This document shows, in pieces, positions 9,420 to 32,000 of a stretch of 32,000 nt of DNA (position 1 is its first letter; the number at the start of each line of letters is the position of its first letter). The position numbers and the translations under genes were made by a program. Below the pieces are notes generated by a model. It ran no database searches. It worked only from the letters and a program-made list of their open reading frames with translations, and had not been told where the DNA came from. The DNA is from a virus: the IMG/VR virus record IMGVR_UViG_3300031576_000027, positions 11,319 to 43,318 of that record; one strand, given 5' to 3'.

Positions 9420-9568
9420 GGCTAGATCCAGGCGGGGCTGGGCAAGGTGACGGCGAGGTAAGGCCGGGTTGGGCGTGGCAGGGCTAGGGTAGGTGCGGCA
9501 GGGACAGGCGTGGCATGGCGCCGCATGGCTAGATGCGGCATCGTAGGGATCGAACAGGAGGGACGACC

Positions 9569-11050
9569 GTGAAGATTCTCAATGTCCGTGGCGGTTTCGC
9601 GACCAACAGCAGCAGCACCCACTCTCTGCTGCTCCTGCCACCAGGGATCAAGGCATCCGACGACGTCGATGGCGGCCACTTCGGGTGGGACTTCTTCACG
9701 GCGGCATCCCGGGAGGCCAAACTGGACTACCTGGGCGAGATTCTGCGCGGCAATCTGGAGGCCGTGTTCGCTGCGGACTGGCAGGACGACACGGCGCGGG
9801 AGGCCAGGGATGCCAAGGTGGCCGGCATCGTGGCGGGCCTGATCGGGATGGAACCCAAGGGCGATGGTGTGGACCACCAGTCCGAGTGGGTGCTGCCGCG
9901 CAGCTGGGACGGCCAGGGTCTGGACGCGGACTTCGTGCGGGACCTGATGATCTGGATGATGCAGGACCGCCTGGCGATCCTGGGTGGCAACGACAACACC
10001 GACCAGACCCACCCGCTGGAAGGGCCCAGCGCCAGTGGCTTCCAGTTGCCGCTGGAACGCGATCGCAGATCGGCCGTCACGGTGGCGCGCCGGGATGATC
10101 TGCGCGGCGGGTACTGGGTGGTGTTCTCCCGGGACCACGGCAACAAGGTCCGCTTCCGCTTCGACACGGTCCACGACCGGCAGGCGGCTGCGCCTGACAA
10201 GTCCACCTGGCCGGAACTGGTGGACGTGAAGATCACGGACTGGTGCGACGCCGGCTGCAGCTACTGCTACCAGGGCAGCACGGTCCGCGGACAGCACGCC
10301 GACCTGGACTGGATCACGCGCCTGGCCGACGGCCTGGCCTCGATGCGCGTCTTCGAAGTGGCGCTGGGCGGCGGCGAGCCGACGGCGCATCCACACTTCC
10401 AGCAGATCCTGAACGTGTTCCGCAACCGTGGCGTGGTCCCGAACTTCACGACCAAGTCGCTGACCTGGTTGGACGGCCCCGGCGCGGTGGACATCCTGGA
10501 CACGTGCGGGACCTTCGCCTACAGCTGCGACACTGGCGACGAGGTCAGAATGCTGGCCCGACACTTGGACGCGGGCACCGTCGTGGCCAACCTGGGTGGC
10601 GAGCACCGATCGGACGTGGTCTGGCGCTGGCCGCGCCCCAACGTCCACCACGTCCTGGGATCGCAGGACATCGACGCGCTGCCCTACATCGTCAGGGCCT
10701 GCCACAAGGCGGGCCTGCAGCTGGTCCTGCTGGGCTTCAAGGACCAGGAGCGCGGGCACGGCCACAAGGTCTACCCGCACGATGGCTGGATCGACGCAGT
10801 GCGGTCCGCCTTGTCAGACAAGTCGTACGTGCGTGTCGCCATCGACACCGTCCTGGCCAGCCGGTACCAGGATCAGCTGCGGGCCAAGGGCGTGCCGCAG
10901 GTGATGTTCACGGTGCGGGAGGGAGCGTTCTCCTGCTACGTCGATGCGGTCGGCAAGACAGTCGCCCCGTCGTCCTTCTGCGATCGCGGTATGTACCGGC
11001 CAGTGGCGCCGGACGCGCAGTCGCTGACGATGGCCTACGGGATGTTCTGA
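9569..11050 (+). CDS. two-domain radical SAM enzyme (unknown N-terminal domain plus radical SAM core with Cys-containing C-terminal extension)
   Basis: ACAGGAGGGACGACC precedes GTG 9569. CDAGCSYCY = CxxxCxxC cluster, followed by ALGGGEP (SAM-binding GGEP). C-terminal FSCYVDAVGKTVAPSSFC resembles a twitch/SPASM-type element. The N-terminal ~225 aa (GGFATNSSSTHS...) are unassigned. Confidence 0.8.
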   Translation: MKILNVRGGFATNSSSTHSLLLLPPGIKASDDVDGGHFGWDFFTAASREAKLDYLGEILRGNLEAVFAADWQDDTAREARDAKVAGIVAGLIGMEPKGDGVDHQSEWVLPRSWDGQGLDADFVRDLMIWMMQDRLAILGGNDNTDQTHPLEGPSASGFQLPLERDRRSAVTVARRDDLRGGYWVVFSRDHGNKVRFRFDTVHDRQAAAPDKSTWPELVDVKITDWCDAGCSYCYQGSTVRGQHADLDWITRLADGLASMRVFEVALGGGEPTAHPHFQQILNVFRNRGVVPNFTTKSLTWLDGPGAVDILDTCGTFAYSCDTGDEVRMLARHLDAGTVVANLGGEHRSDVVWRWPRPNVHHVLGSQDIDALPYIVRACHKAGLQLVLLGFKDQERGHGHKVYPHDGWIDAVRSALSDKSYVRVAIDTVLASRYQDQLRAKGVPQVMFTVREGAFSCYVDAVGKTVAPSSFCDRGMYRPVAPDAQSLTMAYGMF

Positions 11051-11105
11051 TGCGGCGTGGCATGTCCAGGCTGGGCTAGGCAGGGCGCGGCAAGGCGGGG
11101 TTTGG
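11051..11105 (+). repeat. (GGCNN)n pentamer-phased repeat patch
   Basis: tgcgg cgtgg catgt ccagg ctggg ctagg caggg cgcgg caagg cgggg. Confidence 0.65.
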
Positions 11106-11139
11106 GCACCGCGCGGTTGACGATCTGACCGCGCGGTGC
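11106..11139 (+). other. 11-bp GC hairpin downstream of the radical SAM gene
   Basis: GCACCGCGCGG-ttgacgatctga-CCGCGCGGTGC; no U-tract. Confidence 0.6.
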
Positions 11140-11152
11140 TGTAGTCCGTGGC

Positions 11153-11525
11153 GGACAGAGGTTCCTTTACTGGATGGGCCGCGGCCTCCTGGTGCGACAC
11201 CAGGCGCTGTTCGTGATGCAGGCGGGTGGGACAGTGACCACGACCGGCTCATACCCGGTGCATCCCGGTGCGATCCCGGGGCCTGCTACCAAGCGCGCCA
11301 AGGCCGGGCAGGCTGCGGCGCAGATCCTATCCACCAACAGCGGACGACCCGACCGTGACGAATCCGGGAGGGAGCGACGGGCCAGGGCAACCTGGCCCGT
11401 TGTCTGTCCAGGGGTTGACGCTGGGCTGGGACATGTCACCATGGTGGTGGTCGTCAGGCGCCGTCAACGGCGCCCGTCGGACCTCCTGTCAGGGGGCCCC
11501 GCTCGTCACGGGGCCCCCGTTTTGT
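11153..11525 (+). ncRNA. candidate structured non-coding RNA / structured 3' UTR ending in an intrinsic terminator
   Basis: No credible ORF. Stable hairpins include GGGCCAGG-GCAA-CCTGGCCC (11379-11398, GNRA loop) and GGCGCCG-tcaa-CGGCGCC (11457-11474). Possible closing helix 11153-11165 / 11479-11490. Terminator at 11492-11525. Confidence 0.4.
11492..11525 (+). terminator. canonical rho-independent terminator
   Basis: GGGGGCCCCG-ctcgtca-CGGGGCCCCC followed by GTTTTGT. Confidence 0.85.
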
Positions 11526-11555
11526 ACGCGGCGCCAGGCCCGCACCTGTATGTGG

Positions 11556-11595
11556 TTATTTTCTTGTTGCATCCAAGGCCGACCTGTGGGATCAT
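11556..11595 (+). promoter_or_regulatory. conserved AT-rich promoter motif, copy 1 (sigma70/sigmaA-like)
   Basis: TTATTTTCTTGTTGCAT: TTGCAT (11567-11572), 17 nt, GATCAT (11590-11595). Followed by the ACAGGAGGACGACGACG start region of gene 11619. Confidence 0.6.
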
Positions 11596-11618
11596 ACCCA
11601 TGACAGGAGGACGACGAC

Positions 11619-11966
11619 GTGATGCACCTAGTGACGACGGACCAGGATCTGCTGGCGCGGTTGTGCCAACTGCTGGATGGCCAGCCGGCCGGCGTGATCA
11701 TGCGCGCGATCGCCAACGGCCAGGCGGTCCCCTACGCCGACATGATGCGCGCGCTGCTGGACGCGATGCGGTCCGTAGAGGGTGACGACCGCCTGCGGAT
11801 CGTGGCCTGCGCATCCGCAGCGACGCGGACGCGGTTCGACGCCGAGGGCCGCGTGCGCAAGATGGACCGTGACGAGCGGATGGCCGTGGCCCCGTGGTCC
11901 CCGATCCTGCGCAGCATGGGGATCCTGGACCCGCGGTACATCCCCCCGTTGCCCAGCCCGGACTGA
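11619..11966 (+). CDS. hypothetical protein (first gene of the MoxR/VWA operon)
   Basis: ACAGGAGGACGACGAC precedes GTG 11619 / ATG 11622. G/C-rich third positions. Confidence 0.7.
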   Translation: MMHLVTTDQDLLARLCQLLDGQPAGVIMRAIANGQAVPYADMMRALLDAMRSVEGDDRLRIVACASAATRTRFDAEGRVRKMDRDERMAVAPWSPILRSMGILDPRYIPPLPSPD

Positions 11967-12016
11967 TCCTGCTACAAGACCGCAGCACCTGACCCGATCC
12001 GACAGGAGACGACGAC

Positions 12017-13207
12017 ATGACGACGACCCCCGCAGCAACCGCGCTGGCCCTGGCCGTACAGGCACGACTGCCTGTCTTGATGGAGGGTGACCCGGGCGTG
12101 GGCAAGACCAGCTTCACGATCGCCCTGGCCGGTGCGCTCAAGGAGCACCTGGAGGTGGTCATCGCGTCGATCCGCGAGCCCGCCGACTTCGCCGGGCTGC
12201 CCGTGATCGACAAGGACGACACGCAATCCACCGTCCAGGCGCTGCTGGCGCTGGGTCTGGTGGATGCGGACAAGATCCAGGGCGCCAAACTGGACAGCGC
12301 CCGGCACGCGCCCAACGTCTACCTGGCGGCGCCGGCCTGGGCCCGCCGGCTGGCCAAGACGGGCGGCATCCTGTTCCTGGACGAGATCAGCTGCACCCCG
12401 CCGGCCGTCCAGGCTGCGCTGTTGCGCGTGATCCTGGACCGGGTGGTGGGCGATCTGGAACTGTCGCCGGACAAGGTCGCGATCGTGGCGGCCTGCAACC
12501 CGGCGGACCGGGCCGCGGGAGGGTGGGACCTGGCCCCGCCGCTGGCCAACCGCTTCCTGCACCTGCGCTGGCGGATGCAGGCTGACCAGTGGATCGAGGG
12601 CATGGTCGCCGGATGGGGCAGCCCGGTGGTGCCAACGCTGCCCAAGGGCTGGCGCGAGCAGCGGCCTCGCTCCGCGGCACTGATCGCGTCCTTCATCCAG
12701 GCGCGGCGCCAACTGCTGCACCAGTTCCCCAAGGAGGAGTCGCAGCAGTCCAAGGCGTGGGCCAGCCCGCGGACCTGGGACATGGCCGCAACGGCGCTGT
12801 GCGCGGCGGACGGTGCCGGCGCCGGGGATGACGTCCAGGTGGAACTGGTTGCCGGATGCGTGGGCGAGGCGGCCGCCATGGAGTTTCTGAACTGGCGGAA
12901 GGAACTGGACCTGCCGGACCCGGAAGACCTGCTGGCCAACCCCGCGAGCCTCAAACTGCCTGGCCGTGGCGATCGCGCCTACGCGGTGCTGTCCAGCGTG
13001 GCGTCCGCAGTGCTGTCCAAGAACACCCCGGAGCGGTGGGCGGCCGGCTGGAAGGTGCTGGCCCGGGCCACGGCGCTCAACTCCAGCGACGTCGCGGCCG
13101 CGGCCGCCCGCGCGCTCGCGCGCAACGTCCCTAAGGGCGCCAAGGTCCCCAAGGAGGCGGCGGACTTCGCGCCGCTGCTGCAGGCCGCCGGCCTGATGTC
13201 GCGCTGA
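12017..13207 (+). CDS. MoxR-like AAA+ ATPase (AAA_5 type)
   Basis: Walker A LMEGDPGVGKTS, Walker B ILFLDEIS, sensor-1 VAACNP. ACAGGAGACGACGAC precedes the ATG. Confidence 0.85.
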   Translation: MTTTPAATALALAVQARLPVLMEGDPGVGKTSFTIALAGALKEHLEVVIASIREPADFAGLPVIDKDDTQSTVQALLALGLVDADKIQGAKLDSARHAPNVYLAAPAWARRLAKTGGILFLDEISCTPPAVQAALLRVILDRVVGDLELSPDKVAIVAACNPADRAAGGWDLAPPLANRFLHLRWRMQADQWIEGMVAGWGSPVVPTLPKGWREQRPRSAALIASFIQARRQLLHQFPKEESQQSKAWASPRTWDMAATALCAADGAGAGDDVQVELVAGCVGEAAAMEFLNWRKELDLPDPEDLLANPASLKLPGRGDRAYAVLSSVASAVLSKNTPERWAAGWKVLARATALNSSDVAAAAARALARNVPKGAKVPKEAADFAPLLQAAGLMSR

Positions 13208-13221
13208 CTGGAGGGATGACG

Positions 13222-14517
13222 ATGGATGCCCATACCGCCTTCGCCGCAGCCCGCCTGCGCGCCGCAACCGATCGGCCCTACCTGTCCAGCGCGCTGTGGG
13301 CGCTGATCCCCGTGGTCAAGCCCGGGGTCCCGACCATGGCCTGCGACAAGTACTGGCGGGTCTACTACGACCCGGACGTGATCACGACCTGGCCGCTGGA
13401 TCAGGCGGCCGGCGCCGTCTATCACGAGGTCAGCCACCTGCTGCGCGAGCACGCGGAGCGGATGGAGGCGTACCCGTGGCCCACGGACCTGCTGCCCGAA
13501 GTCGTGCAGATCATCAACAACCTGGCGACGGACGCCGAGGAGAACGACGACCTGCTGGCCGAGGGCGTCAAGTTCCCGGTGGATCCGGTGACGCCCGCTA
13601 GCCTGGGCAAGATGGTCGGCAAGACGGTGGACAAGGGCCAGTTGGCCGAGGTCTACGTCCAGATCCTGCTGGACAACCTCCCCGCGCAGGCGGGTGGCAA
13701 ATGCGCCGGCAAGGGCCTAGGTGCCAGCGGGATGGCCAAGGGCGTGGGCGGCGGCAAGTGTGGCAGCTGCAGCCACGGCGGCCAGGATCCCTGGGAGGAA
13801 CCGGCGCCAGGTGACAAGGCCGGCAAGGACGCGGCGCCTGGCATCGGCAAGGCAGAGGGGGAGCTGATCCGCCGGCAGGTCGCCCGCGAGATCCAAGAGG
13901 CCAGCAAGACGCAGGGCAACATCCCTGGCGGCTGGCGGCGCTGGGCGGACGCCAAGCTCAAGCCCCAGGTGGATTGGCGCAAGCAGCTGCGGTCCATGGT
14001 CCGGGCGGCCGCGTACGAGGTCATGGGCGCGGCGGACTACAGCTACCGTCGCCCGGCCCGCCGGCAGGATGTGGCGCCGCGCGTCGTCCTGCCGTCGCTG
14101 CGACAGCCCGTGCCGTCGATCGCCTTCGTGATCGACACGTCCGGGTCCATGGCCAATGAGCAGGTGGCGCAGGGGATCGTGGAGGTCGGTGGGGCGCTCA
14201 AGGGCCTGGGACTGCGGGACGGTGTGCACGTGCTGGCCGTGGACGCGGCGGTGCACAGCTGCAAGCGGGTCTTCGACGCCCGGCAGATCCAGCCCCTGGG
14301 TGGTGGTGGCACGGACATGACGCTAGGGATCCAGCGCGCCATGGCGATCCGGCCCAAGCCCCAGGTGGTGGTGGTGCTGACGGACGGGTACACGGGTTGG
14401 CCTGCCCAGCGGCCGGCCGGCACGCGCGTCGTTGTCGGCATGATCGGCACCAAGGAGAAGGCGCCGGACTGGGCGCGGGTGCTGCACATTCCGGTGCACG
14501 GCAAGGCCGCGGCCTGA
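13222..14517 (+). CDS. VWA-domain protein with N-terminal HExxH metallopeptidase-like domain (DUF2201-like architecture)
   Basis: GGAGGG lies 6 nt upstream of ATG 13222 (track start 13216 is in the same frame). YHEVSHLLREH (HExxH). MIDAS motif AFVIDTSGSM. VVVLTDG. Confidence 0.85.
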   Translation: MDAHTAFAAARLRAATDRPYLSSALWALIPVVKPGVPTMACDKYWRVYYDPDVITTWPLDQAAGAVYHEVSHLLREHAERMEAYPWPTDLLPEVVQIINNLATDAEENDDLLAEGVKFPVDPVTPASLGKMVGKTVDKGQLAEVYVQILLDNLPAQAGGKCAGKGLGASGMAKGVGGGKCGSCSHGGQDPWEEPAPGDKAGKDAAPGIGKAEGELIRRQVAREIQEASKTQGNIPGGWRRWADAKLKPQVDWRKQLRSMVRAAAYEVMGAADYSYRRPARRQDVAPRVVLPSLRQPVPSIAFVIDTSGSMANEQVAQGIVEVGGALKGLGLRDGVHVLAVDAAVHSCKRVFDARQIQPLGGGGTDMTLGIQRAMAIRPKPQVVVVLTDGYTGWPAQRPAGTRVVVGMIGTKEKAPDWARVLHIPVHGKAAA

Positions 14518-14944: not shown

Positions 14945-15077
14945 CACGAGGGGGCGGTATACCCCTCCTCTGCGGACATCGAGTCGCGGAGGCCGGGTCA
15001 GGCACGGCCTAAGCCTCCGATTTTGCGTTGGTGTGTCGTGTATAGACACTGGCATGCGTCGTGTATAGACAAGACGC
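14945..15077 (+). promoter_or_regulatory. intergenic module copy A: hairpin + conserved spacer + tandem GTATAGAC boxes/promoter
   Basis: Hairpin 14948-14967 (GAGGGG/CCCCTC). CTGCGGACATCGAGTCGCG. Box1 GTGTATAGACA 15038-15048; TGGCAT 15050-15055; box2 GTGTATAGACA 15061-15071; ATG 15078. Confidence 0.8.
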
Positions 15078-24996: not shown

Positions 24997-25273
24997 TCTG
25001 ATCGTCGTGCGCTGTGGCTGCCGGCAGACCTACACCCAGGCGCAGTGGGATCAGCTGCCGCTGGTGGGCTACCAGGACGCGCCGGCCGACTGGTCGGACT
25101 GCGATTGCAGGGTCCGCAAGAACAAGCGCGGCAGTCACAGCACGACCTGCGCCGGGCATGCCTACCGACTGGAACTCCGAAACTGCCTGGCCGTGCACCG
25201 TGGCTATCCGTGCGGCACGACCCTGACCCGGGAAGTCGCCCGCGGCGAGCGGTTGCCACCCAAGCCGGGGTGA
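24989..25273 (+). CDS. hypothetical Cys-rich protein
   Basis: GTG with 8-nt overlap. Its stop TGA (25271-25273) sits at the module F hairpin. Confidence 0.6.
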   Translation: MADLIVVRCGCRQTYTQAQWDQLPLVGYQDAPADWSDCDCRVRKNKRGSHSTTCAGHAYRLELRNCLAVHRGYPCGTTLTREVARGERLPPKPG

Positions 25274-25392
25274 GGTATCCCCTCCTCTGCGGACTCTCTG
25301 TCGCGCTGTTGATGGATTTGGCAGCTAACTCCGCGTTCCTGCGTAGCCTGTCGCGTCTATACACTGGCACGGGTAGTGTATAGACATACCAC
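25264..25392 (+). promoter_or_regulatory. intergenic module copy F (degenerate hairpin)
   Basis: GGGG-tgaggtat-CCCC. CTGCGGACTCTCTGTCGCGCTGTTGATGGA. Box1 GCGTCTATACA 25353-25363 (inverted orientation); TGGCACG; box2 GTGTATAGACA 25376-25386; ATG 25393. Confidence 0.75.
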
Positions 25393-26289
25393 ATGACCAC
25401 GCTGACCAACCTGGACGATGCCAAGGCCGCTGCAGCACGGGGCGCCCTCTTTGTCGTGTCGCACTCGGGCGGCAAGGACAGCCAGGCGCAGATGATCAAG
25501 GTGCTGGAGATCGTGCCCGCCAGCCAGGTCGTGGTGGTCCATGCGGACCTGGCCGAGGTCGAGTGGGCCGGGACCCGCGAGCACGCGGAAGCCCAGGCCA
25601 AGGCGGCCGGCGTCCCCTTCGTCGCGGCCAAGGCGCACACCAAGGCCGGCGACGACCTGACCTTCCTGGGCATGGCCGCCCGCCGTCACGCGCAGCGTCC
25701 CGAGGTCCCCAGCTGGCCGTCCAGCAGCACCCGGCAGTGCACCAGCGACCTCAAGCGCGGCCCGATCGCCCGCGAGGTCCGGGCCTACGCCAAGGCGAAC
25801 GGGTACACGGAGATCGTGATGGTCGAGGGCCTGCGCGCTGCGGAGTCCCCCAAGCGCGCGAAGTTGGACGCCTGGACCAAGGACGCGCGCAACAGCACGG
25901 GTGGCCGGACCTGGTGGGTGTGGCTCCCGATCCATCAGATGACCACCGCCGAAGTCTTCGCGACGATCAAGGCCGCAGGCCAGGAGCCGCACTGGGCGTA
26001 CGCGGTCGGCAACGATCGGCTCAGTTGCACCTTCTGCATCATGGGGTCGCGCGGCGATGCGCAGCGCGGCGCCATCTACAACCCGGCGCTCTTTGCCGCC
26101 TACGTCGAGATGGAGCGCCGGACCGGCTACACCGCGCACATGAGCCGCAAGTCGATCGAGGAGGTGGCTGGGATGACCGTGGCGCAGGCGCAGGCCGCCA
26201 ACGCGGACATCAAGGCTGGCCGGCGGCCGGGGCTCCCGGTGATCCAGGACGAGCCGGCGCGGGACATCCCGCCCTGCATGGGACGCTAA
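25393..26289 (+). CDS. PAPS-reductase-family PP-loop ATP pyrophosphatase-like protein
   Basis: VSHSGGKDS PP-loop near the N-terminus, CTSDLKRGP, EGLRAAES, and C-terminal LSCTFC, in the order typical of the PAPS reductase/DndC-type fold. Apparently leaderless ATG 8 nt after TATAGA. Confidence 0.8.
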   Translation: MTTLTNLDDAKAAAARGALFVVSHSGGKDSQAQMIKVLEIVPASQVVVVHADLAEVEWAGTREHAEAQAKAAGVPFVAAKAHTKAGDDLTFLGMAARRHAQRPEVPSWPSSSTRQCTSDLKRGPIAREVRAYAKANGYTEIVMVEGLRAAESPKRAKLDAWTKDARNSTGGRTWWVWLPIHQMTTAEVFATIKAAGQEPHWAYAVGNDRLSCTFCIMGSRGDAQRGAIYNPALFAAYVEMERRTGYTAHMSRKSIEEVAGMTVAQAQAANADIKAGRRPGLPVIQDEPARDIPPCMGR

Positions 26290-26304
26290 CAGGAGGACGC
26301 TACG

Positions 26305-27531
26305 ATGACCCGAACGCACGCAATCAAACTGGGCAGGACGCGGGGGCGCGCGCGCGTCTACCTGCAGGGGCGCTGGCTGGTCAAGGCCGGCTTCCAGGTG
26401 GGCGCCGCGCTGGCGGTGACCTTCGGTCAGGGCCGGGTGGTCCTGGCGCTGGGCGGCGATCGCACGGTCAGCGGCAAGTCGGACGTCCCGGTGATCGACG
26501 TGACCGGCGCGCAGCTGGAACAGGCGCTGTCCGGGGCATCAGACCTGGTCGTCAGGGCGCGCAACGGCCAGCTGGTGATCACGCCGTCCAGGACGGCGGC
26601 CAAGCTCGCCAGTCGGTGCCGCAACGGCAAGGAGGGCGCGATCTTCGCCGGGGCCGGGCTGCTGTCGGAGGCGGCGCGGCAGGCGGGATACGCCCCGGCC
26701 TGGGCGATCGAGTGGGACGAGCGGTACGCGGACGCCTACGAGCGCAACCATCCCGGCGCCGTGATGCACTGCCAGTCCGTCAGCGAGGTGGCGGTGGCGG
26801 ACCTGTCGCCCGTCGAACTGCTGACCATCGGCGTCCCGTGCGAGCCGTTCAGCACCAAGCGCCAAAAGGGCGGACAGGTCCCGGAGGCGCACGAACTGGG
26901 CGACATGACCGCCTGGGCACTGATCCTCGTGGACGCCGTCAACCCGGCCACGGTGGTGGTGGAGAACGTGCCGGGATACCTGACCAGCGGGGCCGGCATG
27001 ATCATGCAGCACGCGCTGCGCCGGATGGGCTACCAGGTGGAGGCACGGGTGATCGACCCCGCGGACCACGGCCAGCTGGCCGGCCGTCGCCGGGCAGTGA
27101 TCCTGGCGACCAGCGGCGCGGCCCCGCGCTTCCAGGCTCCGTCCGACAGCGTCGCACGCTTGGGCGATGTCCTGGACCCCGATGCCGGCGAGTGGTTCGA
27201 CCGGACCAGCAAGCCATGGGTCTTCGCCCACTGGGATCGGCAGCGCGCCAAGGGCAACGGCTTCACAGAGGGCCGGGTGCTGACGGCGGACACGACGCGG
27301 GTGCCGTGCCTGTCCAAGCGGTACCTGAACGGCCAGGGCGATGGCGTGGTCGTGGCCCACCCGACCAAGCCGGACACCTACCGCTGGCTGACGCTGGGCG
27401 AGATCCGCACGCTGCACGGCGTGCCTGAGCACTACCAACTGCCGGGCGCCAAGACCGTCGCGGGCGAAGTGCTGGGGCAGGCGGTTGTGGTCCCGGTCTG
27501 GCGGGACCTGATCCTGGCGCAGCGCGGCTAA
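26305..27531 (+). CDS. dcm: DNA (cytosine-5)-methyltransferase with N-terminal SymE/AbrB-like domain
   Basis: Motif I FAGAGLL, motif IV GVPCEPFS, motif VI VVVENVPG, motif VIII QLAGRRRAVILAT, motif IX RWLTLGEIRTLHGVPEHY, motif X GQAVVVPV. N-terminal RVYLQGRWLVKAGFQVGAALAVTFGQGRVVL. Confidence 0.9.
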   Translation: MTRTHAIKLGRTRGRARVYLQGRWLVKAGFQVGAALAVTFGQGRVVLALGGDRTVSGKSDVPVIDVTGAQLEQALSGASDLVVRARNGQLVITPSRTAAKLASRCRNGKEGAIFAGAGLLSEAARQAGYAPAWAIEWDERYADAYERNHPGAVMHCQSVSEVAVADLSPVELLTIGVPCEPFSTKRQKGGQVPEAHELGDMTAWALILVDAVNPATVVVENVPGYLTSGAGMIMQHALRRMGYQVEARVIDPADHGQLAGRRRAVILATSGAAPRFQAPSDSVARLGDVLDPDAGEWFDRTSKPWVFAHWDRQRAKGNGFTEGRVLTADTTRVPCLSKRYLNGQGDGVVVAHPTKPDTYRWLTLGEIRTLHGVPEHYQLPGAKTVAGEVLGQAVVVPVWRDLILAQRG

Positions 27532-27551
27532 CGCGGAGCGTCACAGGCTGC

Positions 27552-27591
27552 TAATTTTCTTGTTGCACCGACCTTGGACCTGTGGCACATT
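27552..27591 (+). promoter_or_regulatory. conserved AT-rich promoter motif, copy 2
   Basis: TAATTTTCTTGTTGCAC: TTGCAC (27563-27568), 17 nt, CACATT (27586-27591), then ACAGGAGGACGGT-ATG. Confidence 0.6.
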
Positions 27592-27614
27592 GGGATCGTA
27601 GACAGGAGGACGGT

Positions 27615-28802
27615 ATGACGGTCACCAAAGAAGCGGTCCTGGCAGCGATCAAGCAGTGCGACGAGATGGGCGCCGAGGCCTTCTGCAAGGCGCACGGGTA
27701 CAGCCTGTCGGTCAAGTACGTGCTGGTCCACGGCGGCAAGCCCTACCCGTCCAAGGCCATCCTGGGCGTGGCGGCCGGCCTGCGCGGCCGGGACTTCTCG
27801 GGTGGCGCCTACCACGTCGGCCGGGTCCTGGGCCGGCTGGGCTTCAAGGTGCGTGGCTTCACGCGGACCGTGGCGGCCATGTTTGCCGCGGCCGCGGCGC
27901 TGGGTTACGCGGGCGTCGCGGAGGCTGAACTGGCGGACCGTCCGGTGGCCTACTTCGCCAGCGGGTCCAACCACGCGGGGGAGATCGCCGGCTGGGCCAA
28001 GATCGGGCACGACATCGGCGTGGCCGCCCCCGAGATCAACGCCGCGGCCGAGGCGGCGCTGGGTCGCCTGGCCGGCACCGACATCCAGATCTTCGTGGAC
28101 AGCGGCGCCTTCTCGGAAGTCGCCTTCGGGGCTGACGGTCCCAAGGTGGTCAAGCCGATCAGCGACGCGGACTGGCGGGAACGGATCGACCTCTACAAGC
28201 GCCTGGCGGCCAAGTTGGGCGACCAGCTGCATGTGGTGGCGCCGGATCAGGTGGGCTTCCAGCAGGAGACGCTGGACCGGCTGACGCGCTACGCGGATGA
28301 CATGCGGCAGCTGCACGCCATGGGCGCGCGGGTGCTGGTCCCGATGCAGAAGGGCCAGATGACCCAGGCGGATTTCGCCAAGGCCGCGGATGCGGTCCTT
28401 GGCTTCGACTACGTCCCCAGTTTGCCGCTCAAGAAGGCCGCGACGACGGTGGCCGAGGTCGCGGCCTTCGTCCAGGCGCGGCAGCCCCGCCAGTTGCATC
28501 TGCTGGGGCTGGGCGTCAGCAACCGCAACGCCGAGGATTACTTCGACGCGGTCCACGGCAACGCCCCGGACTGCCTCTTTACCTGCGACAGCAACCTGAT
28601 CCGGGCTCACGTCGGTCGCGGCGGATCCAAGGGCGACCGTAAGCCGGGCCGGCTGACGATGGCGATGGACGTGCTGGCGCGGGTCTTCGATCAGGCGACA
28701 TGGACGACGGCGCGCCGCAAGGCGGCCGGTATCGTCCTTTGCTTCGGTTGGGGCACCTGGATCGCCACGAACGCGGGCGGCGCAGCGCCGCAACTTGGCT
28801 GA
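27615..28802 (+). CDS. TGT/DpdA-like DNA or RNA base-exchange (transglycosylase) protein fused to an N-terminal reader-like domain
   Basis: ACAGGAGGACGGT precedes ATG 27615. The C-terminal ~290 aa carry IFVDSGAFS, VVAPDQ, LHLLGLGVS and LFTCDSNLIRAHVGRGG, in the same order as the TGT motifs DSGGFQ / DEC / MGVG / FDCV.PTR.AR.G. N-terminus: KYVLVHGGKPYPSKAILGVAAG..FSGG..LGRLGFKV. Confidence 0.55.
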   Translation: MTVTKEAVLAAIKQCDEMGAEAFCKAHGYSLSVKYVLVHGGKPYPSKAILGVAAGLRGRDFSGGAYHVGRVLGRLGFKVRGFTRTVAAMFAAAAALGYAGVAEAELADRPVAYFASGSNHAGEIAGWAKIGHDIGVAAPEINAAAEAALGRLAGTDIQIFVDSGAFSEVAFGADGPKVVKPISDADWRERIDLYKRLAAKLGDQLHVVAPDQVGFQQETLDRLTRYADDMRQLHAMGARVLVPMQKGQMTQADFAKAADAVLGFDYVPSLPLKKAATTVAEVAAFVQARQPRQLHLLGLGVSNRNAEDYFDAVHGNAPDCLFTCDSNLIRAHVGRGGSKGDRKPGRLTMAMDVLARVFDQATWTTARRKAAGIVLCFGWGTWIATNAGGAAPQLG

Positions 28803-31565: not shown

Positions 31566-31768
31566 AGCGTGAGTGGCGATCGGTCGTGGACTGGTGCCTG
31601 GCGCCAGGCGGCAGCATGGCCCAGTCAAGGCCGAGCATGACGGCCGTGGTCCTGCTGGATCTGGCGTGCGGGCACAGGGTCGTGCGTCGGGTTCGGTCCG
31701 CGCGGGACGGGTCCATGCCACGCAGGGTCAGCTGTTCGCTGTGCCACCAGGCCAAGCACGCGCGCTAA
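31562..31768 (+). CDS. hypothetical small Cys-containing protein
   Basis: ATGA overlap. Its TAA stop (31766-31768) forms the start of promoter motif copy 3. Confidence 0.55.
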   Translation: MKREWRSVVDWCLAPGGSMAQSRPSMTAVVLLDLACGHRVVRRVRSARDGSMPRRVSCSLCHQAKHAR

Positions 31769-31805
31769 TTTTCTTGTTGCGCGCAGACCCGCACCAGGCT
31801 ACTGT
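31766..31805 (+). promoter_or_regulatory. conserved AT-rich promoter motif, copy 3
   Basis: TAATTTTCTTGTTGCGC: TTGCGC (31777-31782), 17 nt, TACTGT (31800-31805), then ACAGGAGGACGACGACG-ATG. Confidence 0.6.
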
Positions 31806-31829
31806 AGGGATGACAGGAGGACGACGACG

Positions 31830-32000
31830 ATGGAAGCGATGGTGACGATCTGTGGACTGGGTGAGGACGTGGAGTACGAGGTAGCAGCCGAGATCCGGCT
31901 GTACCCGCGCGACGGGCAGACGGGCCACAGCGCGGTGGACCTGGACATCACCGAGGTGGTTCTGCTGGAGCACGACGGTCCCCGGTGCAAGCGGACAGCG
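31830..32000 (+). CDS. hypothetical protein, 3'-truncated by window edge
   Basis: ACAGGAGGACGACGACG precedes ATG 31830. The frame (MEAMVTICGLGEDVEYEV...) stays open to the end of the window with G/C-rich third positions. Absent from the ORF track, presumably because it is short and incomplete. Confidence 0.6.
   Translation, partial: MEAMVTICGLGEDVEYEVAAEIRLYPRDGQTGHSAVDLDITEVVLLEHDGPRCKRTA

What the first reader, a model, noticed from the sequence alone, without database searches (positions are those of the whole stretch)
25393..28802. Three-gene DNA-modification island with an unreported enzyme combination: PP-loop enzyme + C5-MTase + DpdA/TGT-like transglycosylase
Three consecutive genes make up the island. 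(1) A PAPS-reductase-family PP-loop protein (SGGKDS), the same superfamily as the DndC/SspD ATP pyrophosphatases of DNA phosphorothioation; QueC of 7-deazaguanine synthesis is another PP-loop ATPase. (2) A complete C5-cytosine methyltransferase. (3) A protein whose C-terminal ~290 aa carry the TGT/DpdA motif series (DSG.F ... PD ... LLGLG ... CDS..IRA..GRG). DpdA-type enzymes are known to swap guanine in DNA for 7-deazaguanine derivatives and protect phage DNA from restriction. No folE/queD/queE/queC set is visible in this window. That means either a host-derived base is inserted or the PP-loop enzyme supplies or finishes a different substituent. I do not recognise a PAPS-reductase-like enzyme, a Dcm and a DpdA-like protein as a known unit, so it may specify a novel or compound hypermodification. 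The unit is split between two promoter classes: module F drives genes 1-2 and AT-rich promoter copy 2 drives gene 3.
Basis: partly seen in the sequence, partly recalled or inferred. Interest (0 to 1): 0.75.

Follow-up and report, generated by a model that had tools for sequence, protein, structure and literature searches.

The report
Phage DNA-modification cluster with new DpdA-like enzyme
Three neighbouring genes of an uncultured ~79-kb phage encode three separate DNA-modifying enzymes, and the third belongs to a large, undescribed branch of the enzymes that swap guanine in DNA for 7-deazaguanine, here without the usual genes that make that base.

Summary
The three genes are real: 25393-26289, 26305-27531 and 27615-28802, all on the + strand.

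- **Gene 1** is a PP-loop PAPS-reductase-family protein. It is closest to the DNA-phosphorothioation enzymes BrxP, DndC and SspD, and has three invariant cysteines.
- **Gene 2** is a complete C5 cytosine methyltransferase with an extra AbrB/SymE-like N-terminal domain.
- **Gene 3** has two domains. The C-terminal ~290 aa form a TIM barrel. Its 48 best PDB fold matches are all tRNA-guanine transglycosylases. It aligns with phage DpdA profiles (hhalign 89%, E 2e-6), with all three catalytic aspartates in register.

The TGT/DpdA call is therefore supported. The "single three-enzyme pathway" reading is not.

- The gene-3 family has about 4,000 cluster representatives and no match in cultured phages.
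- It sits among varying anti-restriction genes (C5 or N6 methylases, Mom, ArdA, PAPS reductases) or inside giant polyvalent proteins.
- A PAPS reductase lies nearby in only 7 of 49 phage loci.
- QueC plus QueE flank it in one lineage only. No preQ0 genes were found in the 46 kb of this genome that I could inspect.

Best reading: a mosaic anti-restriction cluster containing a new DpdA-like subfamily that probably uses a host-made base.

The parts
25356..25386 (+). Promoter/operator-like element upstream of gene 1. It is a perfect inverted repeat, GTCTATACAC-N11-GTGTATAGAC. Its right arm, GTGTATAGACA, recurs 17 nt before other start codons in the window.
   Evidence: GTGTATAGACA also occurs at 15038, 15061, 18428, 19324, 20242 and 23459. 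Function not tested.
25393..26289 (+). Gene 1, 298 aa. PP-loop ATP pyrophosphatase of the PAPS-reductase family, BrxP/DndC/SspD-like, with SGGKDS and three invariant cysteines (C116, C212, C215).
   Evidence: PF01507 E 2.6e-9. phrog_424 E 5e-41. PADLOC BrxP 1.2e-19, DndC 4e-7, SspD 2.6e-5. Family invariants.
26305..27531 (+). Gene 2, 408 aa. C5 cytosine DNA methyltransferase (aa 113-402) with an N-terminal SymE/AbrB-like domain (aa 18-47). It starts 15 nt after the gene 1 stop codon.
   Evidence: PF00145 E 6e-30 and PF08845 E 1.4e-8. TIGR00675 E 1.5e-23. Motifs FAGAG, PC and ENV are visible in the translation.
27550..27614 (+). Second promoter-like module, followed by the gene 3 ribosome-binding site. 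GCTAATTTTCTTGTTGCA ... TTGGGAT ... AGGAGG (27604-27609).
   Evidence: Three copies in the window (11554, 27550, 31764) against 0 expected. Alignment. Function not tested.
27615..27914 (+). Gene 3, N-terminal domain (aa 1-100). ScoMcrA_N 'head' domain, whose function is unknown even in ScoMcrA.
   Evidence: PDB 5zmm residues 5-97, E 3.3e-6 and profile E 2.2e-16. PF26345 precomputed on all full-length relatives. PADLOC mREase_IV 2.7e-7.
27915..28802 (+). Gene 3, C-terminal domain (aa ~105-395). An (alpha/beta)8 barrel of the TGT/DpdA kind. Predicted catalytic residues: D162 (codon 28098-28100, DSGAF, end of strand 3), D211 (28245-28247, APD.VG) and D325 (28587-28589, DS, end of strand 8).
   Evidence: AF2 pLDDT 92.4 and 91.4. 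Foldseek PDB top hits are all TGT. hhalign against phage DpdA 77.5% and 89%. The three Asp align in register. Family invariants.

Best explanation
The region is a mosaic anti-restriction (DNA-modification) cluster in the early-gene region of a ~78.8-kb high-GC phage. It encodes three enzymes that most likely act independently on phage DNA.

**Gene 2** methylates cytosine C5 at an unknown motif.

**Gene 1** is a stand-alone BrxP/DndC-like PP-loop enzyme with a three-Cys site (inferred Fe-S). By analogy it adenylates and sulfurates a nucleic-acid target, or otherwise counters phosphorothioate-based defence. This is inferred only.

**Gene 3** is the notable part. It is a member of a large, previously undescribed subfamily of the TGT/DpdA base-exchange enzymes.
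- Inferred mechanism, by homology to TGT and to S. Montevideo DpdA: D325 attacks C1' of a target deoxyguanosine and displaces guanine, forming a covalent enzyme-DNA intermediate.
- A free 7-deazaguanine-type base is then inserted.
- The ScoMcrA_N domain probably helps DNA binding or targeting.
- No preQ0 genes were found in the inspected 58% of this genome, and they were found beside only one lineage among the 81 relatives' loci. The base is therefore most likely scavenged from the host queuosine pathway (preQ0, preQ1 or CDG).
- The same domain occurs inside virion-delivered polyvalent proteins. This suggests it can act on incoming DNA before any phage gene is expressed.

**Shown:** gene structure, domain identities, fold, conserved residues, distribution and contexts.
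**Inferred:** substrate, chemistry, and independence of the three enzymes.
For: **Fold**
- The full-length model has TGT as PDB ranks 1-19 (E 2e-5).
- The domain-only model has TGT as ranks 1-48 (best E 6.3e-7, TMq 0.45-0.50). The first non-TGT hit is rank 49 at E 3e-4.
- BFVD also returns Arthrobacter phage Mufasa8 DpdA (E 5.6e-4).

**Profile comparison**
- hhalign against 16 phage DpdAs gives Prob 77.5%, E 1.9e-5.
- A more diverse domain profile gives 89%, E 2.3e-6.
- The extended alignment pairs g3 D162, D211 and D325 with 9g DpdA D72, D114 and D215. It also pairs QKG with HxGE and HLLGLG with HGFG.
- These Asp are invariant or >=90% conserved across the family.
- They sit at the ends of strands 3, 4 and 8. 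In S. Montevideo DpdA, D95 immediately precedes the beta3/alpha3-loop insertion (residues 97-109) and D256 sits where the beta8/alpha8-loop insertion begins (PMC10164549).

**Context**
- The L043 lineage has QueC (PF06508, E 8e-30) and a QueE-like radical SAM (38% identical to 9g QueE) directly downstream, with no other DpdA in the locus.
- Elsewhere the neighbours or fusion partners are DNA modifiers and anti-restriction genes: C5 and N6 methylases, Mom, ArdA, AcrF31, PAPS reductase, ART-PolyVal, SNF2, LPD1 and LPD22.
- A divergent member (L064) weakly hits phrog_887, 'queuine tRNA-ribosyltransferase' (E 0.0047).

**Genes 1 and 2:**
Against: - No Pfam, PHROG or NCBIfam TGT model matches gene 3, or any of 45 relatives scanned against Pfam-A. 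However, the validated phage 9g DpdA also carries no precomputed Pfam domain.
- TM-scores to TGT are only about 0.5, and rmsd is 8-9 A over long alignments.
- The strand-6 'LGG' element of DpdA and TGT, which lines the pocket for the 7-substituent, is replaced by an invariant P..KK.AT motif. The inserted base may therefore differ.
- No ParB/DpdB-like partner was found in the window. Among the 81 relatives' loci only three showed weak ParB-like tblastn hits.
- preQ0 genes are absent from 48 of 49 phage loci and from all 32 bacterial-genome loci.
- The host is unknown, so availability of preQ0 or preQ1 cannot be checked.
- 33 kb of the genome could not be inspected.
Confidence: 0.55

Rival explanations
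1. The PP-loop enzyme, the C5 methylase and the DpdA-like protein form one pathway that builds a compound or novel hypermodified base. For example, gene 1 might make or finish the base that gene 3 inserts.
For: - In L003, a gene with only a faint PAPS_reduct hit starts 43 nt before the gene-3 homologue ends.
- A PAPS_reduct domain is fused in one 1,909-aa protein with the TGT-like domain and ART-PolyVal (L040).
- L122 repeats the set: Mom, g3 homologue, C5 methylase, PAPS_reduct.
- A PAPS reductase lies 1-7 kb away in L006, L042 and L050 and in 6 of 32 bacterial-genome loci.
- QueC, the usual DpdA partner, is also a PP-loop ATPase (established knowledge).
Against: - 42 of 49 phage loci have no PAPS reductase within about 10 kb.
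- The gene-1 family is a huge, tightly conserved, stand-alone family (3,601+ hits at about 60% identity), most from contigs outside the gene-3 search set.
- Its nearest relatives are backbone-sulfur enzymes (BrxP, DndC, SspD), not QueC.
- Gene 3 has its own repeated promoter-like module, separate from genes 1-2.
- Fusion inside a polyvalent protein does not imply a shared pathway, because such proteins concatenate unrelated effectors (PMC5512222).
Confidence: 0.12
2. The gene-3 barrel keeps the TGT-like scaffold but is not a 7-deazaguanine transglycosylase. It could be a DNA glycosylase or hydrolase, or an exchanger of a different base or substrate, used as an anti-defence effector.
For: - There are no preQ0 genes in almost all contexts.
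- The pocket motif differs: P..KK.AT replaces LGG.
- There is no TGT zinc subdomain and no consistent ParB/DpdB partner.
- Fold similarity is moderate (TM about 0.5).
- The domain is deployed in polyvalent proteins next to ART, SNF2 and InPase effector domains.
Against: - All three catalytic Asp and the DSGAF and HxxGxG motifs of DpdA are retained and nearly invariant.
- One lineage shows QueC/QueE adjacency.
- The recurrent neighbours are DNA modifiers that protect phage DNA, not nucleases.
Confidence: 0.25
3. Gene 3 acts on tRNA, like canonical TGT, to reprogram host or phage tRNA rather than DNA.
For: The closest solved structures are tRNA-guanine transglycosylases.
Against: - At profile level the closest match among the families I compared is phage DNA DpdA.
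- There is no TGT zinc or C-terminal tRNA-binding subdomain.
- The N-terminal domain is shared with a DNA restriction enzyme.
- The neighbours are DNA modifiers.
Confidence: 0.05

Closest known systems
Phage DpdA1 (e.g. Enterobacteria phage 9g gp3; actinophage 'queuine tRNA-ribosyltransferase' genes)
   Same: - TIM-barrel base-exchange scaffold.
- Shared motifs, in order: F.DSGAFS, D.(V/I)G, (H/Q).G, H..G.G, DS.
- No zinc subdomain.
- Phage-encoded, lying among DNA-metabolism or anti-restriction genes.
   Different: - No BLAST-level similarity: tblastn of g3 and of the L043 homologue against 50,697 phage records finds nothing.
- DpdA1 genes lie beside FolE, QueD, QueE or QueC, and often beside a ParB-like gene. 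Gene 3 does not.
- Gene 3 has an extra ScoMcrA_N domain.
- The strand-6 motif is P..KK.AT instead of LGG.
Bacterial DpdA of the DpdABC system (S. Montevideo; PMC10164549)
   Same: Same inferred double-displacement chemistry. The general acid/base Asp lies after strand 3, there is a base-reading Asp, and the nucleophile Asp lies after strand 8.
   Different: - Bacterial DpdA needs the ParB-like ATPase DpdB. It also has a large insertion in the beta8/alpha8 loop (residues 256-383), which gene 3 lacks.
- It is part of a host restriction-modification system, not a phage counter-defence.
tRNA-guanine transglycosylase (Z. mobilis, T. maritima, mouse QTRT1)
   Same: Best structural matches in the PDB.
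   Different: - 13-16% identity and no PF01702 hit.
- No CxCxxC...H zinc site.
- The substrate is tRNA.
ScoMcrA (PDB 5zmm), a phosphorothioate-dependent type IV restriction endonuclease
   Same: The N-terminal ~90-residue head domain is homologous.
   Different: Gene 3 has no SBD, SRA or HNH domains. The function of the head domain is unknown even in ScoMcrA (PMC6224610).
DndC / SspD / BrxP PAPS-reductase-like sulfurtransferases, and stand-alone phage PAPS reductases
   Same: - Gene 1 shares the PP-loop and conserved cysteines. Its best PADLOC hits are BrxP, DndC and SspD.
- Phage PAPS reductases cluster in anti-defence hotspots, and one is reported to help evade Dnd (PMC13551039, citing Piel et al. 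2022).
   Different: - Gene 1 is much shorter (298 aa against about 450-780) and scores far below the equivalog cut-offs (28.7 against 290 bits).
- No DndA, DndD or DndE, or SspB or SspC, partners appear in the 46 kb inspected.
Polyvalent proteins of phages and conjugative elements (Iyer et al. 2017, PMC5512222)
   Same: The gene-3 barrel domain is a module of 1,000-4,300-aa proteins. Other domains in these proteins include LPD1, LPD22, ART-PolyVal, SNF2, C5 methylase, Mom, InPase and PAPS_reduct.
   Different: - Gene 3 itself is a small two-domain protein.
- The 2017 survey text mentions no TGT, queuine, deazaguanine or barrel domain.

Membership tests
TGT/DpdA base-exchange superfamily (gene 3, C-terminal domain) | (alpha/beta)8 barrel whose nearest solved folds are TGTs | tested here: met
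   AF2 pLDDT 91-92 with eight strand-helix units. Foldseek PDB ranks 1-48 are all TGT, with best E 6.3e-7 and TMq about 0.5.
TGT/DpdA base-exchange superfamily (gene 3, C-terminal domain) | Three invariant aspartates: general acid/base in DSG.F, base-reading Asp, and nucleophile Asp | tested here: met
   D162, D211 and D325 are invariant or >=90% conserved. They align with 9g DpdA D72, D114 and D215. Their roles are taken from PMC10164549. Spatial clustering was not checked because no coordinates were available.
TGT/DpdA base-exchange superfamily (gene 3, C-terminal domain) | Recognition by curated sequence models (PF01702, phrog_887) | tested here: not met
   No hit for gene 3 in Pfam, PHROGs or NCBIfam, and none for 45 relatives in Pfam-A. 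Only L064 hits phrog_887, weakly (E 0.0047). The validated 9g DpdA also lacks a precomputed Pfam domain.
Canonical TGT (tRNA enzyme) | Zinc-binding CxCxxC...H subdomain after the barrel | tested here: not met
   The family has no conserved Cys or His after D325. Only about 70 helical residues follow.
Phage or bacterial DpdA systems | Genomic linkage to 7-deazaguanine synthesis genes (FolE, QueD, QueE, QueC) | tested here: not met
   None in the window or in 46 of ~78.8 kb of the genome. The only radical SAM gene is SPASM/MoaA-like. The feature is met only in the L043 lineage of the family.
Phage or bacterial DpdA systems | ParB-like ATPase partner (DpdB) | tested here: not met
   tblastn with two phage ParB-like queries finds nothing in the window and hits only L042, L055 and L085 among 81 loci. 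Sensitivity is limited.
Phage or bacterial DpdA systems | Guanine exchange activity, or 7-deazaguanine present in DNA | not testable with these tools
   Needs LC-MS/MS of DNA or an in vitro exchange assay.
DndC / SspD / BrxP (gene 1) | PP-loop SGGKDS plus conserved cysteines | tested here: met
   SGGKDS, C116, C212 and C215 are invariant in 26 relatives.
DndC / SspD / BrxP (gene 1) | Score above the family cut-off, and presence of partner genes (DndA/D/E, SspB/C, BREX core) | tested here: not met
   TIGR03183 scores 28.7 bits against a cut-off of 290. No partner families appear in the Pfam tables for 46 kb.
C5 cytosine DNA methyltransferase (gene 2) | Full PF00145 domain with catalytic motifs I (F.G.G), IV (PC) and VI (ENV) | tested here: met
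   PF00145 E 6.2e-30 over profile positions 6-318 of 324. FAGAG, GVPCEPFS and VVENVPG are present in the translation.

The most novel reading that the evidence does not exclude
The gene-3 family is a fifth phage type of DNA base-exchange enzyme. It needs no phage-encoded synthesis pathway.

- Delivered as a free protein, or as a module of injected polyvalent proteins, it would rewrite guanines in the incoming genome using a base already present in the host.
- Because of its altered P..KK.AT pocket, it might instead insert a base not yet seen in DNA.
- In the subset of phages that also carry the BrxP/DndC-like enzyme (window, L003, L040, L122), that enzyme might further derivatise the inserted base, for example by thiolation.
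Probability: 0.15. Interest if true: 0.85.

Novelty: new variant of a known kind. Interest (0 to 1): 0.6.

Why it matters
DpdA is currently treated as a signature protein for 7-deazaguanine DNA and is defined by five subfamilies, nearly all found next to preQ0-pathway genes (PMC10516641).

The family found here has about 4,000 cluster representatives at 50% identity. It is absent from about 50,000 cultured-phage records and from PHROGs. It would enlarge that picture in three ways.
- Many uncultured phages of soil and aquatic bacteria may carry modified guanines that current annotation misses.
- The modification may depend on host metabolites.
- Base exchange may be one of the activities that polyvalent proteins carry into the cell with the DNA.

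This bears on restriction and CRISPR evasion, on sequencing and cloning artefacts in metagenomic phage DNA, and on enzyme tools for site-specific DNA base replacement. Genes 1 and 2 on their own are ordinary.

Tried and rejected
- **Nucleotide search.** Megablast of the island against INPHARED phages found no match.
- **Protein search in cultured phages.** tblastn of gene 3 and of the L043 homologue against all phage records found no match. The family therefore cannot be assigned to DpdA1-4 by similarity.
- **PDB sequence searches.** phmmer and hmmsearch of gene 3 against PDB sequences matched only the ScoMcrA head domain. Phage 9g DpdA against PDB sequences matched nothing useful.
- **Family scans.** Pfam, PHROGs and NCBIfam scans of gene 3, and a Pfam-A scan of 45 relatives, gave no TGT model hit.
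- **QueD in L043.** I tested whether the 135-aa gene next to QueC in L043 is QueD. It is not, by BLASTP, Pfam or PHROGs.
- **QueE in the window.** I considered the 505-aa radical SAM gene at 9533-11050 as a QueE. I rejected this because it has only weak SPASM/MoaA-type matches and no tblastn match to 9g QueE.
- **Conserved partner gene.** Clustering neighbours in 45 loci found no conserved partner. The largest neighbour clusters cover only 4-5 loci each.
- **Literature.** Searches for DpdA5, DpdA-like proteins, ScoMcrA head-domain fusions, and TGT domains in polyvalent proteins found no description of this family. Piel et al. 2022 could not be read.
- **Rest of the genome.** The remaining 33 kb of the ~78.8-kb genome could not be fetched with the allowed look-ups.

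Full report
**1. What is there**

The window has 64-72% G+C and is phage DNA. Tail, lysin and many small early genes surround the region. GC3 values of 0.89-0.93 single out three consecutive + strand genes:
- gene 1, 25393-26289 (298 aa)
- gene 2, 26305-27531 (408 aa)
- gene 3, 27615-28802 (395 aa)

The longer GTG start at 27582 is less likely for two reasons. AGGAGG sits at 27604-27609, just before the ATG at 27615. Public gene calls also use the 395-aa product.

The identical genes lie on an ENA contig of 78,981 bp and a Logan contig of 51,930 bp. Window position 25006 maps to ENA position 1 and window position 25146 maps to ENA position 78,981. The window therefore runs across the contig ends with a 141-bp overlap. 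The genome is circular or circularly permuted and about 78.8 kb long.

**2. Genes 1 and 2**

Gene 1:
- It matches PF01507 (E 2.6e-9) and phrog_424 (E 5e-41).
- Among defence-system models it is closest to BrxP (1.2e-19), DndC (4e-7) and SspD (2.6e-5).
- It scores far below the equivalog cut-offs.
- It belongs to a very large family of stand-alone proteins of about 255-300 aa, roughly 60% identical to each other, with 3,601+ hits.
- SGGKDS and three cysteines (C116, C212, C215) are invariant.
- Phage PAPS reductases are viewed in the literature as probable DNA-modification or anti-defence genes, and one is reported to help evade Dnd (PMC13551039). Their chemistry is not established.

Gene 2 is a complete C5 methyltransferase (PF00145, E 6e-30). 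It carries an additional SymE/AbrB-like N-terminal domain (PF08845, E 1.4e-8).

**3. Gene 3 has two domains**

Residues 1-100 are the "head" domain of the phosphorothioate-dependent restriction enzyme ScoMcrA. The match to PDB 5zmm has E 3e-6 with the single sequence and 2e-16 with a family profile, and PF26345 is precomputed on all full-length relatives. The function of this domain is unknown even in ScoMcrA (PMC6224610).

Residues ~105-395 match no curated family. More than 440 full-length relatives exist, all unnamed. Their alignment shows invariant motifs at the C-terminal ends of successive strands: FASG.N, F.DSGAF.E, VAPD.VG.Q, Q.G, P..KK.AT, HLLGLG and DS.

**4. Is the C-terminal domain TGT/DpdA-like?**

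- *Fold.* AF2 models are confident, with pLDDT 92.4 full-length and 91.4 domain-only. Foldseek against the PDB returns only tRNA-guanine transglycosylases at ranks 1-19 for the full-length model. For the domain-only model, ranks 1-48 are all TGT (best E 6.3e-7, TMq 0.45-0.50), and the first other barrel appears at rank 49 with E 3e-4. Against viral models, Arthrobacter phage Mufasa8 DpdA is among the hits (E 5.6e-4).
- *Profiles.* I built an alignment of 16 phage DpdAs (9g plus ten diverse phages fetched from GenBank records). hhalign gives 77.5% (E 1.9e-5). With a more diverse domain profile it gives 89% (E 2.3e-6).
- *Catalytic residues.* The extended alignment puts D162, D211 and D325 opposite the three DpdA aspartates (9g D72, D114, D215). 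It also pairs QKG with HxGE and HLLGLG with HGFG. In S. Montevideo DpdA the equivalent residues (D95, D130, D256) are the general acid/base, the base-reading residue and the nucleophile, and D95A or D256A abolishes guanine exchange (PMC10164549). D95 immediately precedes the beta3/alpha3-loop insertion and D256 sits where the beta8/alpha8-loop insertion begins. D162 and D325 occupy the matching strand ends in the model.
- *Context.* In one lineage (L043, L045, L046) the homologue is followed directly by QueC (PF06508, E 8e-30) and a QueE-like radical SAM protein. There is no other DpdA in that locus.
- *Weak sequence link.* A divergent member weakly hits phrog_887, "queuine tRNA-ribosyltransferase".

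Differences from known members:
- There is no zinc subdomain.
- There is no PF01702 match. The validated 9g DpdA also has no precomputed Pfam domain.
- The strand-6 LGG element is replaced by P..KK.AT.

**5. How the family is distributed**

- A profile search of 1.84 billion cluster representatives finds 4,015 proteins at E <= 1e-3, 2,329 at E <= 1e-10 and 566 at E <= 1e-30. The profile included the head domain, so part of the weak tail may be head-only proteins.
- There is no tblastn match in 50,697 cultured-phage records.
- In IMG/VR there are 48 loci. In GTDB genomes, 32 loci carry the barrel, mostly in Acidobacteriaceae, Myxococcota and Alphaproteobacteria on prophage-like or mobile DNA. 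Another 17 loci carry only the head domain.
- Many copies of the barrel sit inside proteins of 855-4,300 aa, together with other domains:
  - L039 (4,108 aa): LPD22 and a C5 methylase.
  - L040 (1,909 aa): ART-PolyVal and PAPS_reduct.
  - L044: SNF2.
  - L062: a C5 methylase and Mom.
  - L066: LPD1.
  - L031: InPase.
  - L041: DUF6884.
- The best viral fold match is an 877-aa "ART-PolyVal-like" protein (E 1e-15, 28% identity).
- These are polyvalent proteins in the sense of Iyer et al. 2017. The text of that paper mentions no TGT-like or barrel module.

**6. Is the trio a unit?**

Counts among 49 independent phage-contig loci:

| Neighbour of the gene-3 homologue (within ~10 kb, or fused) | Loci | Which |
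|---|---|---|
| PAPS reductase | 7 | window; L003 (faint Pfam hit, genes overlap by 43 nt); L006; L040 (fused); L042; L050; L122 |
| C5 methylase | 11 | three of them fused |
| Mom | 7 | one of them fused |
| QueC + QueE | 1 | L043 |

- ArdA, AcrF31 and N6 methylases also occur as neighbours.
- L122 repeats the window's set in another order: Mom, homologue, C5 methylase, then PAPS_reduct.
- In bacterial genomes a PAPS reductase lies within 8 kb in 6 of 32 loci, and Que genes in none.
- No neighbour is obligatory.
- Gene 3 has its own repeated promoter-like module, with three copies in the window. Genes 1-2 follow a different repeated element.

I read this as an anti-restriction hotspot that assembles DNA modifiers combinatorially. 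A functional link between genes 1 and 3 remains possible, given the fusion, the overlap and the repeated proximity. It is the minority hypothesis.

**7. Mechanism proposed**

Gene 3 most likely exchanges guanine in double-stranded phage DNA for a 7-deazaguanine-type base by the TGT/DpdA double-displacement route, with D325 as nucleophile and D162 as acid/base. The base would come from the host, because no FolE, QueD, QueE or QueC was found in the 46 kb inspected.

The presence of the domain in polyvalent proteins fits action on incoming DNA with pre-existing host metabolites. The altered pocket motif and the missing DpdB-like partner leave room for a different base or a different reaction. Every step beyond fold, residues and context is inference.

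**8. Verdict**

The TGT/DpdA idea is supported. The "single novel three-enzyme pathway" is not. The real point of interest is a large, unannotated DpdA-like subfamily with a ScoMcrA_N fusion and deployment in polyvalent proteins, which is a new variant of a known kind.

Noticed in passing
window 25006-25146, compared with ENA contig k141_3047319 (L002, L068, L069): The window runs across both ends of the 78,981-bp ENA contig, with a 141-bp (k-mer sized) overlap. The Logan contig also spans this junction. The genome is therefore circular or circularly permuted, about 78.8 kb long, and probably complete.
   Followed up: partly
window 15038, 15061, 18428, 19324, 20242, 23459, 25376: The 11-mer GTGTATAGACA recurs seven times. 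In five cases it lies exactly 17 nt before a start codon (15078, 18445, 19341, 20259, 25393). It is a likely early promoter or leader element. At gene 1 it forms the right arm of a perfect 10-bp inverted repeat.
   Followed up: partly
window 11554-11640, 27550-27636, 31764-31850: Three copies of a second promoter-like module: TAATTTTCTTGTTGCA, then a spacer, then TAGGGAT-like, then GACAGGAGGACG, then the start codon. Zero copies are expected by chance.
   Followed up: partly
window 9533-14517: A cluster of three genes. The first is a 505-aa radical SAM protein with weak SPASM/MoaA-type matches, and it is not QueE. The second is an AAA_5 (MoxR-like) ATPase. The third is a DUF2201_N/DUF2201 protein (phrog_1314, labelled 'HNH endonuclease'). 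The function in a phage is unknown.
   Followed up: partly
window 26356-26445 (gene 2, aa 18-47): The C5 methyltransferase carries an N-terminal SymE-toxin/AbrB-like fold domain (PF08845, E 1.4e-8). This is an unusual addition that may give extra DNA binding.
   Followed up: no
L043 9959-12343 (IMGVR_UViG_3300029787_000023): The gene-3-family homologue (433 aa) lies directly next to QueE-like and QueC genes, with a Mom gene 2.4 kb further on. This is the only locus linking the family to 7-deazaguanine synthesis. No QueD or FolE was found in the ~20.7-kb locus (about 10 kb either side).
   Followed up: yes
L040 7346-13075; L039 1943-14269; L062 8561-12094; L044 6071-12250: Giant polyvalent proteins (1,177-4,108 aa) carry the TGT-like barrel together with other domains. 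L040 has ART-PolyVal plus PAPS_reduct. L039 has a C5 methylase plus LPD22. L062 has a C5 methylase plus Mom. L044 has SNF2.
   Followed up: partly
L120 6503-7240: A dGTP_diPhyd_N (PF18909) protein lies 3 kb upstream of a gene-3 homologue. A dGTP-degrading enzyme near a guanine-exchange enzyme could be meaningful.
   Followed up: no
L006 8213-8461: An AcrF31-family anti-CRISPR gene lies immediately downstream of a gene-3 homologue. This supports an anti-defence neighbourhood.
   Followed up: no
L010, L012, L013, L014, L016, L018 (actinophage and Cellulophaga phage DpdA loci): Canonical phage DpdA genes are almost always directly flanked by a ParB-like gene, as well as by QueC or QueD. This mirrors bacterial DpdA-DpdB. 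No such partner accompanies gene 3.
   Followed up: partly
L097-L118 (bacterial genomes): The ScoMcrA_N head domain alone occurs in many bacterial genomes (Saccharothrix, Amycolatopsis, Sphingobium, Novosphingobium, Photobacterium and others). It is presumably attached there to other effector domains such as type IV restriction enzymes.
   Followed up: no
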